From: a virus
Virus record (IMG/VR): IMGVR_UViG_3300007153_000037
Direction: 5' to 3' (one strand)
Length of the DNA: 7,432 nucleotides
The translations under genes were made by a program, and so were the position numbers. Below the pieces are notes generated by a model. It was not told the DNA's origin, made no database searches, and worked only from the letters and a program-made list of their open reading frames with translations. This document shows positions 4,447-5,321 of the stretch, piece after piece (the stretch's first letter is position 1; each line of letters opens with the position of its first letter).

Positions 4447-4561
4447 AATTGGTACCTGCAGGTGAGATCCTGGGCGAGATCGATCGGGCGTTTTGGTACC
4501 AATTTCTGCTGCAGCAGATCCAGGCCGGCGCCGACATGGAGGTAAACGAGGTACCAATCAG
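4447..4561. promoter_or_regulatory. GGTACC-box array A (3 boxes), downstream of the 123-aa gene
   Basis: GGTACC cores lie at 4451, 4495 and 4550, spaced 44 and 55 bp apart. The box at 4493-4502 is the perfect 10-bp palindrome TTGGTACCAA. The array shares sub-motifs with array B: GAGATCCTGGGC 13 nt after the first box, GGTACCAATTTCT..CTGCAG..CCAGG, and GGTACCAATCAG. Confidence 0.7.
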
Positions 4562-4929
4562 CCGTGGCCGGTTCGGTTGAGGCGAGCCAGGAAGTGATCC
4601 ATCGACTCACCAACTTGAGGTGAGGTCTCAGGCTCGAGATGGTGACGCAGGCGCGGCGGCGTCGTGTCCTTGGCCTGGAACATATCGCCTTGACCAGCAA
4701 CCTCGGCGAGCTGGATCGCAGCGTCACGAGCTGCTGCCAAAGTCTGCTGATACGACAGCACCTGCTGGCGAAGCTCGGCGATCTCAGCACGGGCAAGCTT
4801 CAGATCACTCTCCAGTCGTAACGACTTCTCGGCGGCGTACGCGAATGCCTTTGAGGCAACACGATAACCCGTAGAGGTCATGAGCTTTTCGGTCAGGCTG
4901 TCATCGGCTTGGAACTTCACTAGCGGCAT
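4558..4929 (-). CDS. Small coiled-coil protein, possible ribbon-helix-helix DNA-binding protein, 123 aa (paralog of 5064-5321)
   Basis: The internal ATG at 4929 has AGGA 7 nt upstream. The product starts MPLVKFQADDSLTEKLMTSTGYRVASKAFAYAAEKSL, a beta-strand, helix, G-x-x, helix pattern compatible with RHH. A heptad-like region follows (LKLARAEIAELRQQVLSYQQTLAAARDAAIQLAEVAGQ). The 30-codon upstream extension in the ORF track runs through box array B and lacks an RBS. Confidence 0.6.
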   Translation of the reverse strand: MPLVKFQADDSLTEKLMTSTGYRVASKAFAYAAEKSLRLESDLKLARAEIAELRQQVLSYQQTLAAARDAAIQLAEVAGQGDMFQAKDTTPPRLRHHLEPETSPQVGESMDHFLARLNRTGHG

Positions 4930-4940
4930 AGTCGGATCCT

Positions 4941-5067
4941 TTTGGTACCAGTTGGCGAGATCCTGGGCAAACCAGGTGCGCGAAAATGGTACCAAAGCCA
5001 TCGAGCAAACTGGTACCAATTTCTCCAGCTGCAGGAAGACCAGGTGCTACAAAAAGGTACCAATCAG
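4941..5067. promoter_or_regulatory. GGTACC-box array B (4 boxes), intergenic between the two paralogous small genes
   Basis: GGTACC cores lie at 4944, 4988, 5012 and 5056, spaced 44, 24 and 44 bp apart. The array is collinear with array A apart from a 24-bp segment carrying one extra box. Confidence 0.7.
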
Positions 5068-5321
5068 AGATCGAGGATCTCGCCTGCAATGCCCTTAAGT
5101 CTGGCCAGCAGGTCATCCAGTTGGGCGCCTTCGGTGTCGAGATCCGCAACACGGCGACGGAGCTGGCGAACCTCTCCAGCCAAGCGCGGATAGTCCTCAA
5201 GGACATGGCAAACGGCATCGAGATCAGCACGCCCTGGAGCGTATAGACGGGCGTCAGAGACGAGGTGTGGCGGGATCGGGAGAGGTATTGGCTTGCGCAT
5301 AATGGCCATTACGTTACGCAC
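5064..5321 (-). CDS. Small coiled-coil protein, possible Arc/RHH-like DNA-binding protein, 78-85 aa (paralog of 4558-4929)
   Basis: Possible starts are GTG 5321, ATG 5309 and ATG 5300. From 5300 the product is MRKPIPLPIPPHLVSDARLYAPGRADLDAVCHVLEDY..., resembling Arc-like N-termini of the pattern pfpLRlPpeL...A..gRs. The segment RLAGEVRQLRRRV...LKGIAGE aligns with KLARAEIAELRQQV...LAEVAGQ of the 123-aa protein. In both genes the stop codon lies inside TGATTGGTACC. Confidence 0.6.
   Translation of the reverse strand: MRNVMAIMRKPIPLPIPPHLVSDARLYAPGRADLDAVCHVLEDYPRLAGEVRQLRRRVADLDTEGAQLDDLLARLKGIAGEILDL

What the first reader, a model, noticed from the sequence alone, without database searches (positions are those of the whole stretch)
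4447..5321. Diverged tandem duplication of a module made of a small RHH-like coiled-coil gene plus a phased array of TGGTACCA boxes
All nine GGTACC hexamers in the 7.4-kb window lie within 4451-5535, where about two would be expected genome-wide by chance. Seven of them form two collinear arrays: A at 4451, 4495 and 4550, and B at 4944, 4988, 5012 and 5056. The arrays show a recurrent 44-bp spacing, about four helical turns. They share flanking motifs: GAGATCCTGGGC exactly 13 nt after the first box, GGTACCAATTTCT..CTGCAG..CCAGG, and GGTACCAATCAG. The core is palindromic, with TTGGTACCAA perfect at 4493-4502. Each array directly follows a small minus-strand gene whose stop codon is embedded in TGATTGGTACC. 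The two gene products are paralogs: RLAGEVRQLRRRV...LKGIAGE aligns with KLARAEIAELRQQV...LAEVAGQ. Their N-termini are compatible with ribbon-helix-helix folds. The unit of one gene plus its box array therefore seems to have been duplicated in the cargo position between zot and the repressor, where CTXphi carries ctxAB. Possible roles are an autoregulatory switch, a centromere-like or iteron system for maintaining the episomal RF (compare the RHH proteins ParG and omega with repeated sites), or an immunity or anti-repressor circuit. I know of no described inovirus module like this, but I cannot search databases.
Basis: partly seen in the sequence, partly recalled or inferred. Interest (0 to 1): 0.8.

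Follow-up and report, generated by a model that had tools for sequence, protein, structure and literature searches.

The report
Operator arrays bracketing a phage regulator gene
The clustered TGGTACCA boxes are most likely the binding sites of the small, unannotated DNA-binding protein encoded between the two arrays; relatives of this gene-plus-sites cassette occur in Pseudomonas filamentous phages, P4-like satellites and plasmids, where the box sequence and the protein's N-terminus change together.

Summary
All nine GGTACC sites lie in 4451-5535 (0.82 expected). Seven form two arrays with a recurrent 44-bp spacing.

The duplication reading is mostly wrong. The boxes belong to one gene, the 123-aa ORF at 4558-4929(-), which the two arrays bracket. 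In 17 related loci examined in detail:
- The layout is conserved: upstream 44/24/44, downstream 44/44 or 55/44.
- The box changes only with this protein's N-terminus: LVKFQ gives TGGTACCA, LT[IL]RD gives TGCTAGCA or TGATAGCA, IVQINV gives TCATATGA.
- It does not track the HTH repressor, Rep or the 81-aa neighbour.

A DNA-only search for the GCTAGC layout found 26 viral contigs, and all 26 carry the matching protein beside the array.

Box 3 plus one T reads TGnTAnnAT in nearly all loci, an extended -10. Box 4 abuts the RBS. Autorepression is therefore likely.

The 81-aa gene is a separate, attP-embedded family with similar predicted topology but unproven homology. RHH membership is not demonstrated.

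The protein's C-terminal Q-x-D-[LM]-[FL] motif resembles a beta-clamp-binding motif. The cassette also lies beside candidate origin regions. Both hint at replicon control, but this is untested.

This is a new, unannotated regulator-operator family, not a new kind of system.

The parts
4558..4929 (-). Gene for the 123-aa box-binding protein. It has an N-terminal strand/short helix/turn region (residues 1-26), a long helix (27-82), the conserved AEVAGQGDMF motif (75-84), a disordered linker and a C-terminal helix (110-121).
   Evidence: phrog_8031, E 2e-19, with the profile starting at this ATG. 15 + 119 homologues. AF2 model. The N-terminus covaries with the box sequence.
5055..5062 (.). Upstream array, box 1 (AGGTACCA on +). 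It lies one base after the stop codon of the 81-aa gene.
5011..5018 (.). Upstream array, box 2 (TGGTACCA), 44 bp from box 1.
4986..4994 (-). Upstream array, box 3 (4987-4994) plus the next T. This reads TGGTACCAT on the minus strand, a predicted extended -10 (TGnTAnnAT) for the promoter of the 123-aa gene. It lies 24 bp from box 2.
   Evidence: Columns T,G.,T,A.,C,A,T are invariant across 7 diverged arrays of three box classes. L029 has TTGACA-17-TATGAT with the -10 inside its box 3. The consensus sigma-70 scan found nothing, so this is an inference.
4943..4950 (.). Upstream array, box 4 (TGGTACCA), 44 bp from box 3. It sits immediately 5' of the RBS (AAGGA, 4941-4937 on minus) and the ATG at 4929.
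4549..4556 (.). Downstream array, box 1' (AGGTACCA), one base after the stop codon (4558-4560) of the 123-aa gene.
4494..4501 (.). Downstream array, box 2' (TGGTACCA), 55 bp from box 1'.
4450..4457 (.). Downstream array, box 3' (TGGTACCT), 44 bp from box 2'.
4962..4977 (.). Conserved inter-box motif of the box 3-box 4 unit: CCTGG at 4962 and ACCAGGT at 4971-4977. Equivalent motifs lie at 5039-5045 (box 1-box 2 unit), at 4469 (box 2'-box 3' unit of array A) and at 4520 (the 55-bp spacer between box 1' and box 2').
   Evidence: 45 of 52 44-bp units in 17 loci carry CCWGG in the spacer, whatever the box class. Function unknown.
5064..5309 (-). Neighbouring 81-aa gene (phrog_13909). It is not part of the box system. 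Its two possible ATGs (5309, 5300) lie inside the dif-like attP site.
5293..5380 (.). CTXphi-type attP: two inverted dif-like sites (5293-5318 and 5354-5380) that fold into a forked hairpin in the gene-sense single strand.
   Evidence: Sequence. Inverted repeat I3. DNA fold -30 kcal/mol, z = -4.6. Conserved in L001, L002, L009, L016, L017 and L019. Prophage copies begin here.
4216..4260 (-). Two conserved hairpins at the far end of the intergenic region that follows array A: GTGGGGGTG...CACCCCCAC at 4237-4260, and a terminator-like stem followed by a T run at 4233-4216.

Best explanation
The seven arrayed TGGTACCA boxes are the cognate binding sites (operators) of the 123-aa protein encoded at 4558-4929(-), which lies between the two arrays.

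What is shown by comparison:
- The protein has a variable N-terminal DNA-recognition region. Its predicted order of extended strand, short helix, turn and long helix is RHH-like but unproven.
- It also has a conserved long helix.
- The working unit is a pair of 8-bp palindromes exactly 44 bp apart, separated by a conserved CCWGG-containing spacer.

What is inferred:
- The long helix probably joins dimers into higher oligomers.
- Each palindrome takes one dimer, and the coiled coil couples the two dimers of a pair.
- Two such pairs, 24 bp apart, cover the gene's own promoter. Box 3 is an extended -10 and box 4 abuts the RBS, so the protein represses its own synthesis.
- A second array starts at the gene's stop codon and ends at the intergenic region that holds conserved hairpins and may contain the origin.
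- The occupied downstream array acts on whatever lies next to it, such as transcription running into the intergenic region or replication, or it pairs with the upstream array to loop out the gene.

The gene plus its two arrays is a portable, self-contained cassette. In relatives its recognition code has been swapped repeatedly. That is what one expects of an immunity, incompatibility or copy-control determinant, which must not cross-talk with co-resident elements.
For: 1. The boxes are real and non-random.

2. The same layout recurs. The order is stop codon, box, 44, 24, 44, RBS, gene, box at the stop codon, then 44/44 or 55/44. It is present in 17 loci examined, with 54-90% identity in class 1 and down to 35-40% in other classes. 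Spacers diverge while boxes stay fixed: 21 of 24 invariant columns in an alignment of 7 arrays lie in the four boxes.

3. The box sequence tracks this protein's N-terminus:
- LVKF[QT] or LIKFD gives TGGTACCA.
- LT[IL]R[DE] or ITIRD gives TGCTAGCA, with TGATAGCA in TLTLRD.
- LIQIRQ gives TG[GAC]TAGCA.
- IVQINV gives TCATATGA.

4. No other gene tracks the box:
- HTH repressor: 67% identical between the window (class 1), L018 (class 2) and L001 (no boxes), and absent from class-1 L005, L008 and L012.
- Rep: 73% identical in class-2 L017 but only 25% in class-1 L016.
- 81-aa protein: about 50-57% identical to all.

5. Reverse test. The DNA pattern GCTAGC-N38-GCTAGC-N18-GCTAGC-N38-GCTAGC found 26 IMG/VR contigs. 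All 26 carry an L[LM]T[IL]RD-type family member starting 12-30 bp after the last box.

6. The cassette occurs without any inovirus genes:
- in P. aeruginosa P4-like satellites such as pHS87b;
- on Pseudomonas plasmids;
- on a resolvase element.
The boxes therefore need only this protein.

7. Promoter. Box 3 plus T reads TGnTAnnAT in the three box classes aligned, and TCATATGAT in L029, which lacks the TG; L005/L006 read TGGTACCTT instead. L029 shows TTGACA-17-TATGAT with the -10 inside box 3.

8. Precedent. The RHH protein Aux1 of pLS20 binds a 25-bp fragment that contains the inverted repeat TGGTACCA, which the authors proposed as its site (PMC5675868).
Against: - No binding experiment exists.
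- The DNA-binding fold is unidentified. Pfam, NCBIfam, PDB sequence search and Foldseek give nothing beyond coiled-coil noise. hhalign against a hand-typed RHH set gives 5.5% probability.
- The AF2 model is a monomer, so the strand pairing and the oligomeric state are unseen.
- The simple sigma-70 scan finds no promoter in 3700-5650. The extended -10 is my reading of a conserved pattern that could equally be part of the protein's site.
- Covariation is partly confounded by phylogeny. There are about four specificity classes rather than dozens, and within residues 1-40 I cannot say which residues read the DNA.
- The conserved CCWGG spacer is unexplained and might be the site of a second factor.
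- The role of the downstream array is inferred from position only.
Confidence: 0.72

Rival explanations
1. First reader's model. A unit of one RHH-coiled-coil gene plus its box array was tandemly duplicated. The 81-aa and 123-aa proteins are paralogs, and each serves the array that follows it.
For: - Both genes end TGA one base before a box.
- Arrays A and B share 13-35-nt stretches at 77-100% identity.
- Both AF2 models have the same topology of coil, 10-residue helix, loop and 52-56-residue helix.
- hhalign aligns 75 collinear columns with pairwise E = 3e-4.
Against: - hhalign probability is only 40%, with 16% identity in coiled-coil-rich sequence. BLASTP gives E = 0.085.
- The two proteins fall in different PHROGs.
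- The 81-aa family is far larger and occurs without boxes or the 123-aa gene (L001).
- The cassette occurs without the 81-aa gene.
- Both arrays flank the 123-aa gene even in satellites and plasmids that lack the 81-aa gene.
- The 81-aa protein's identity to the window does not follow box class.
Confidence: 0.08
2. The arrays are a centromere-like or plasmid-maintenance site. The protein coats them, as omega, ParG or KfrA do, to segregate or stabilise the episomal replicative form. Autoregulation would be a side effect.
For: - Repeated sites bracket the gene and the protein has a long coiled coil.
- The family sits in plasmid backbones near repA, ssb, TA and ParA genes and in episomal satellite DNA.
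- Specificity swapping is also typical of incompatibility determinants.
Against: - There is no ParA/ParM-type NTPase in the 7.4-kb phage or in the satellite.
- The boxes are spaced 44/24 bp apart, not contiguous like omega heptads or ParG boxes.
- In plasmid L027 the ParA gene has its own downstream partner gene.
- There is no homology to ParG, omega or KfrA.
Confidence: 0.12
3. The boxes are sites for another phage protein, either the HTH repressor (operators) or Rep (iterons). The 123-aa gene merely sits among them.
For: The arrays lie between the structural operon and the repressor/Rep region. Array A adjoins the intergenic region.
Against: - Box class is uncoupled from both proteins.
- No box lies in the repressor-Rep intergenic region 3737-3852.
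- The cassette works in replicons with unrelated initiators: a DUF927 primase in satellites and a plasmid RepA.
Confidence: 0.03
4. The boxes are a by-product of coding sequence: W-Y or V-P codons of the 153-aa frame, or of small plus-strand ORFs.
For: ORFs of 153 aa (4558-5019 -), 43 aa (4449-4580 +) and 83 aa (4942-5193 +) run through the arrays and read WYQ at the boxes.
Against: - The 44- and 24/55-bp spacings put successive boxes in different frames.
- The family profile starts at ATG 4929.
- The 30-aa extension has no conserved match (E >= 0.35). Frames on both strands of array A match relatives equally, which means DNA conservation rather than peptide conservation.
- The class-2 box contains TAG.
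Confidence: 0.02

Closest known systems
Mnt repressor of phage P22, and similarly AmrZ (from my own knowledge)
   Same: A small phage regulator with an N-terminal DNA-reading domain followed by a C-terminal helical oligomerisation domain. It binds palindromic half-sites as a dimer of dimers and autoregulates.
   Different: - Mnt binds one compact 17-bp operator. Here the dimer sites are 44 bp apart, arranged in arrays on both sides of the gene.
- There is no detectable sequence or fold match.
- The helix here is 56 residues long and is followed by a conserved QxD[LM][FL] motif.
Omega (inc18 plasmids) and ParG (TP228), RHH proteins that bind arrays of short repeats (cited for omega in PMC10534721, otherwise my own knowledge)
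   Same: One small protein recognises many copies of a short site upstream of its own gene and at other places on a small replicon. It links autoregulation to maintenance.
   Different: - Omega heptads and ParG tetramer boxes are contiguous. Here 8-bp palindromes sit at fixed 44-bp intervals with a conserved spacer.
- There is no partner ParA in the phage.
- There is no homology.
CTXphi RstR/ig-2 heteroimmunity module (my own knowledge)
   Same: A regulator and its sites, in a XerCD-integrating filamentous phage, change specificity together between related phages.
   Different: - That role's position, divergent from rep, is occupied here by a separate HTH_3 repressor (3853-4209).
- The box cassette lies on the other side of the intergenic region, next to attP.
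- The cassette also exists outside inoviruses.
Aux1 of Bacillus plasmid pLS20 (PMC5675868)
   Same: An RHH protein that binds a 25-bp fragment containing the inverted repeat TGGTACCA, which the authors proposed as its binding site.
   Different: It is a relaxosome accessory protein at oriT with a single site. It is unrelated in context, and no homology was tested or claimed.
Clamp-binding initiators and regulators such as TrfA of RK2 or Hda (my own knowledge), with the CBM definition from PMC11139829
   Same: A site-specific DNA-binding protein of a small replicon that carries a short Q-x-x-[LM]-[FL] motif in a flexible terminal segment.
   Different: - Position 2 of the motif here is G or K, not aliphatic.
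- No binding data exist.
- The protein is not the initiator.

Membership tests
Ribbon-helix-helix (MetJ/Arc) superfamily | Significant sequence or profile similarity to a known RHH family | tested here: not met
   - Pfam scans of the window protein and of 12 family members return only coiled-coil noise.
- A PDB profile search returns only coiled coils.
- NCBIfam gives nothing.
- hhalign of the N-terminal alignment against 8 hand-typed RHH domains gives 5.5% probability, although the strand and helix register is as expected.
Ribbon-helix-helix (MetJ/Arc) superfamily | Strand, helix A, turn, helix B fold, with the strands of two chains paired into the DNA-reading ribbon | tested here: inconclusive
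   The AF2 monomer shows coil 1-9, helix 10-20, loop 21-26 and helix 27-82. The order of elements fits, but the ribbon exists only in a dimer, which could not be modelled. Foldseek against the PDB finds nothing with E < 1.
Ribbon-helix-helix (MetJ/Arc) superfamily | Recognition of short palindromic or repeated sites, with specificity set by N-terminal residues | tested here: met
   This rests on comparative evidence only. Four box classes covary with residues 1-40.
Omega/ParG-type centromere-binding partition system | A partner ParA-type ATPase encoded with it | tested here: not met
   No such ORF or Pfam hit exists in the 7.4-kb genome or in the satellite.
Omega/ParG-type centromere-binding partition system | Contiguous short repeats forming the centromere or operator | tested here: not met
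   The boxes are separated by 36-, 16- or 47-bp spacers. Centre-to-centre distances are 44, 24 and 55 bp.
Iteron-type replication control | Repeats bound by the replicon's own initiator | tested here: not met
   The box class does not follow Rep identity. The same boxes occur with three unrelated initiator types.
Iteron-type replication control | Repeats located in or beside the origin | tested here: inconclusive
   Array A abuts the hairpin-rich intergenic region. In the satellite the downstream array is followed within a few hundred bp by a region with several GGGAAC repeats. No origin has been mapped in any of these elements.
Phage immunity repressor/operator module | Protein and site specificities that change together between related phages | tested here: met
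Phage immunity repressor/operator module | Operators that control the replication/early promoter | tested here: not met
   There are no boxes between the HTH repressor gene and rep (3737-3852). The boxes overlap only the protein's own upstream region and its 3' flank.
Beta-clamp-binding proteins (CBM Q-phi-x-[LM]-[FL], PMC11139829) | Motif match in a flexible or terminal segment | tested here: inconclusive
   - 122 of the 123 family members where a motif was found have Q-x-D. Position 4 is L or M in 112 and position 5 is F or L in 121.
- Position 2 is G or K rather than aliphatic.
- The motif lies 0-1 residue from the C-terminus in 21 members.
- pLDDT drops below 50 from residue 83.
Beta-clamp-binding proteins (CBM Q-phi-x-[LM]-[FL], PMC11139829) | Physical binding to DnaN | not testable with these tools
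   No complex prediction or experiment was available.

The most novel reading that the evidence does not exclude
The cassette is a new kind of replicon-control device. A sequence-specific protein is parked on phased 44-bp site pairs next to the origins of small Pseudomonas replicons: the inovirus replicative form, P4-like satellites and plasmids. It uses its conserved C-terminal Q-x-D-[LM]-[FL] motif to bind the host beta sliding clamp, coupling its own expression and element copy number or immunity to replication. Interchangeable recognition heads would then define incompatibility or immunity groups.
Probability: 0.15. Interest if true: 0.8.

Novelty: new variant of a known kind. Interest (0 to 1): 0.62.

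Why it matters
- It turns two 'unknown function' PHROG families and a striking sequence oddity into a concrete, testable regulator-operator system with a readable recognition code: at least four protein-head and box pairs.
- The cassette is shared by three kinds of mobile element in Pseudomonas, including P4-like satellites present in many P. aeruginosa genomes (the exact protein is indexed in 449 blocks of the assembly collection). One experiment series would therefore annotate many genomes.
- The fixed 44-bp geometry and the natural specificity swaps make it a candidate set of orthogonal repressor-operator parts.
- If the clamp-motif lead holds, it would be a new link between mobile-element control and the host replisome.
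- For inovirus biology, it shows that the region between zot and the repressor is a conserved attP plus regulatory end, not a cargo slot.

Tried and rejected
- Megablast of the whole genome against 50,697 phage records gave only a 106-bp match. tblastn of the 123-aa protein against phages found nothing.
- Pfam, NCBIfam and PADLOC for both small proteins gave no family.
- PDB profile search and Foldseek of both AF2 models gave only coiled-coil or insignificant hits.
- hhalign of the N-terminal domain against a hand-typed RHH alignment gave 5.5% probability. RHH membership is left open.
- Rfam on the whole window at E <= 1 gave nothing, so the arrays are not a known RNA.
- The consensus sigma-70 scan of 3700-5650 gave no promoter.
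- I considered a sigma-54 reading of box 3 and of the CCWGG spacer, and rejected it by inspection because the GG-N10-GC spacing is not kept in relatives.
- Box L and box R pairing as a hairpin in single-stranded DNA would give only about an 8-bp stem, and the same units occur on double-stranded plasmids. Rejected.
- Plus-strand ORFs and the 153-aa extension as real genes were rejected.
- The GGTACC 44/24/44 pattern in IMG/VR gave 0 hits. Class-1 relatives there use 44/34/44.
- Literature searches for RHH proteins in filamentous phages, for TGCTAGCA or TGGTACCA operators, and for XerCD inoviruses of Pseudomonas found no description of this module.
- PMBT54 ORF13, described as omega-like, is in a Pf3-like phage. 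Its relationship to this family was not tested directly; tblastn of the 123-aa protein against the phage collection found nothing.
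Full report
**What the window is.** The 7432-base window is a complete circular inovirus genome with a 24-base terminal overlap (1-24 = 7409-7432). Almost all genes are on the minus strand:
- Rep, 2600-3736 (Phage_CRI/G2P_X_C, phrog_702);
- a G5P-like gene, 1924-2277;
- a coat gene, 1196-1330;
- Zot/pI, 5611-6738.

An HTH_3 repressor gene (3853-4209) lies on the plus strand. Relatives are prophages or episomes of Pseudomonas and Stutzerimonas.

**Check of the observation.** GGTACC occurs nine times, all within 4451-5535. 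Shuffles expect 0.82, and 0 of 200 reach nine. Seven sites form two arrays:
- Array A at 4450-4556, with spacings 44 and 55.
- Array B at 4943-5062, with spacings 44, 24 and 44.

Both small minus-strand genes end TGA one base before a box.

The two remaining sites, 5503 and 5530, lie in W-Y-R and R-Y-P codons of a 61-aa gene. Relatives that keep the peptide encode it as TGGTAT. I treat these two as incidental.

**Gene models.**
- The 85-aa ORF matches phrog_13909 from residue 5 (E 2.6e-36), so the gene is 5064-5309, or starts at 5300.
- The other ORF matches phrog_8031 from the ATG at 4929 (E 2e-19), with AAGGA 7 nt upstream.
- The 30-residue extension that would make the 153-aa frame through array B has no conserved counterpart (E >= 0.35).
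- Frames on both strands of array A match relatives equally, which indicates DNA conservation rather than peptide conservation.

**The architecture is conserved and centred on one gene.** I oriented 17 related loci by the 123-aa gene. They came from protein homologues, their contigs and collection scans. The order is always the same:
- a box right after the preceding stop codon (where there is a preceding gene);
- boxes at 44, 24 and 44 bp, with 34 instead of 24 in one subgroup and extra 44-bp pairs in others;
- the RBS, then the gene;
- a box at or overlapping the gene's stop codon;
- one or two more boxes, at 44/44 or 55/44 where there are three in all.

The elementary unit is a pair of boxes 44 bp apart. 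I counted 52 such units, and 45 carry CCWGG in the spacer regardless of box class. In an alignment of seven diverged upstream arrays, 21 of 24 invariant columns fall in the four boxes and three are the ATG.

**Who binds the boxes.** The box sequence changes between relatives, and it changes only with the N-terminus of the 123-aa family:
- LVKF[QT] or LIKFD goes with TGGTACCA.
- LT[IL]R[DE] or ITIRD goes with TGCTAGCA (TGATAGCA with TLTLRD).
- LIQIRQ on a plasmid goes with TG[GAC]TAGCA.
- IVQINV in an AT-rich inovirus goes with TCATATGA.

The C-terminal half of the protein stays conserved across classes. The other candidate proteins are uncoupled from the box:
- The HTH repressor is 67% identical between the window (class 1), L018 (class 2) and blackswan219-1 (no boxes). 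It is undetectable in class-1 L005, L008 and L012.
- Rep is 73% identical in class-2 L017 but only 25% in class-1 L016.
- The 81-aa protein is about 50-57% identical to all.

As a reverse test, I searched IMG/VR with DNA alone, using GCTAGC at 44/24/44. This returned 26 contigs. All 26 encode an L[LM]T[IL]RD-type family member starting 12-30 bp after the last box.

The cassette also sits in elements with no inovirus genes:
- P4-like satellites of P. aeruginosa, directly after the Toprim/DUF927 primase, including the circular form pHS87b;
- Pseudomonas plasmids;
- a resolvase element.

I conclude, at about 0.85 for this step, that the boxes are the cognate sites of the 123-aa protein.

**How it probably works.**
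- *Shown:* box 3 plus the next base reads TGnTAnnAT in the three box classes aligned (TGGTACCAT, TGCTAGCAT, TGATAGCAT), with those columns invariant there; L029 reads TCATATGAT, which lacks the TG, and L005/L006 read TGGTACCTT instead. In L029 a textbook TTGACA-17-TATGAT has its -10 inside box 3. Box 4 sits between that point and the RBS.
- *Inferred:* box 3 is an extended -10 promoter element, so occupancy of boxes 2-4 represses the gene. The simple consensus scan found no promoter, so this step is about 0.65.
- *Shown:* in the AF2 monomer, residues 1-9 are extended, 10-20 form a helix, 21-26 a loop and 27-82 one long helix. A disordered stretch and a terminal helix follow.
- *Inferred:* each palindrome takes a dimer, and the long helices couple the two dimers of a 44-bp pair (roughly 150 A of DNA).
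- *Position only:* the downstream array starts at the stop codon and ends at the intergenic region, which carries conserved hairpins and a terminator-like stem. In the satellite it is followed within a few hundred bp by a region with several GGGAAC repeats that looks like an origin. It could block transcription into the origin, modulate replication, or pair with the upstream array. I cannot decide between these.

**The fold.** RHH is compatible with the data: the order of elements fits, and class 2 has an h-x-h-x-h-P-x-x-L pattern. It is not demonstrated. Pfam, NCBIfam, the PDB profile search and Foldseek are all negative, and hhalign against typed RHH domains gives 5.5%. One precedent: the RHH protein Aux1 of pLS20 binds a 25-bp fragment that contains the inverted repeat TGGTACCA (PMC5675868).

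**The 81-aa neighbour and the duplication idea.**
- The 81-aa family is larger (108 hits against 15).
- It exists without boxes or the 123-aa gene in blackswan219-1.
- It is absent from many cassette-bearing loci.
- Its model has the same topology: coil 1-13, helix 14-23 and helix 29-80.
- hhalign aligns 75 collinear columns, but at 40% probability and 16% identity.

Distant common ancestry is possible. A duplicated 'gene plus array' module is not what the comparison shows. Both arrays serve the 123-aa gene, and arrays A and B resemble each other because both are built from the same 44-bp unit.

Positions 5293-5380 hold two inverted dif-like sites:
- TTGCGCATAA-TGGCCA-TTACGTTACG on the plus strand;
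- TTCGCATAA-TTCAGGC-GTTACGTTGAG on the reverse complement.

In the gene-sense single strand they fold into a forked hairpin (-30 kcal/mol, z = -4.6), as in CTXphi attP. The start codons of the 81-aa gene and the stop codon of the 61-aa gene lie inside the XerC-type arms. Prophage copies begin exactly there. The region is therefore the conserved attP/regulatory end of the genome, not a cargo slot.

**A lead, not a finding.** The most conserved part of the family is E-[VIL]-A-G-Q-x-D-[LM]-[FL].
- Of the 123 members in which the motif was located, 122 have Q-x-D.
- Position 4 is L or M in 112, and position 5 is F or L in 121.
- In 21 members the motif is 0-1 residue from the C-terminus.
- pLDDT collapses right after it.

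This resembles the beta-clamp-binding motif Q-phi-x-[LM]-[FL], for example QADMF of Pol III alpha (PMC11139829), except that position 2 is G or K. Together with the cassette's place beside candidate origin regions in three replicon types, it suggests a replication-coupled role. I put this at about 0.15.

**Novelty.** No Pfam, NCBIfam or PADLOC model matches, both PHROGs are 'unknown function', and no paper I could search describes the module. The kind of system, a small autoregulated DNA-binding protein with arrays of palindromic sites, is known. The new features are:
- the family itself;
- the fixed 44-bp paired geometry with a conserved spacer;
- the bracketing of the gene by its own sites;
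- the natural specificity swaps;
- the spread across phages, satellites and plasmids.

Verdict: new variant of a known kind, interest 0.62.

Noticed in passing
window 5293-5380: A CTXphi-type attP. Two inverted dif-like sites fold into a forked hairpin in the gene-sense single strand (-30 kcal/mol, z = -4.6). The ATGs of the 81-aa gene (5309, 5300) and the stop codon of the 61-aa gene (5372-5374) lie inside the XerC-type arms. XerCD integration would therefore cut the 81-aa gene off from everything upstream of it.
   Followed up: partly
window 1478-1908 (minus strand): Three consecutive small acidic ORFs (45, 53 and 41 aa) lie between the G5P-like gene and the coat genes. Each has two Cys pairs (CxxC...CxxC-like). 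They look like tandem paralogous zinc-ribbon mini-proteins.
   Followed up: no
window 4962-4977, 5039-5045, 4469, 4520, and the 44-bp units of L002-L029: The spacer between paired boxes is itself conserved across all box classes. The consensus is roughly TTTTCG..CTGCAGCTGCTGCACCWGGTCGA, and it is rich in 6-bp palindromes. CCWGG is present in 45 of 52 units. No protein or function could be assigned to it.
   Followed up: partly
window 4558-4929, residues 75-84, and 123 family members: The near-invariant motif AGQxD[LM][FL] at the end of the long helix, often at the extreme C-terminus, resembles a beta-clamp-binding motif (compare QADMF of Pol III alpha).
   Followed up: partly
window 4558-4929, residues 105-121: A second conserved C-terminal element, GESMDHFLARLNR, is predicted helical. 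It is present in long class-1 proteins and also in some class-2 proteins (P0211, P0212, P0216, P0217, P0220), but absent from the 85-100-aa forms. It appears to be an optional add-on module.
   Followed up: no
window 5503-5535: Two further GGTACC sites, 27 bp apart, lie inside the 61-aa gene in DWYRE and RRYPN codons. Relatives L003 and L002 keep DWYR but encode it as TGGTAT. The sites are probably incidental, though two chance sites so close together is unusual.
   Followed up: yes
window 4237-4260 and 4216-4233: The hairpin GTGGGGGTG-loop-CACCCCCAC, followed by a CCCCG...CGGGG stem with a T run, is conserved in L003, L005 and L006 next to the 3' end of the repressor gene. It could be a bidirectional terminator or part of an origin or packaging signal.
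   Followed up: no
L005/L008/L015/L017/L018/L002, just after the downstream array: In many relatives the motif CCTCGACC..GCCGCTTGCGGC..ATTAGTCGCCTGCACG (a hairpin plus ATTAGTCGCC) follows the array directly. The window and L024 instead share CGCGCCTGATTACC..A..GCG. These may be nick-site regions of different Rep types.
   Followed up: no
L030 6294-7120 (P. aeruginosa P4-like satellite; pHS87b = L059): The same cassette sits between the DUF927 primase-helicase gene and an 830-bp non-coding stretch that contains several GGGAAC repeats, which may be the satellite origin. The exact 97-aa protein is indexed in 449 blocks of the assembly collection.
   Followed up: partly
L012/L013 330-560: In two IMG/VR relatives, about 230 bp separate box 4 from the 123-aa gene's start codon. 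The window has 20 bp there. This may be an insertion or an additional small ORF in the leader.
   Followed up: no
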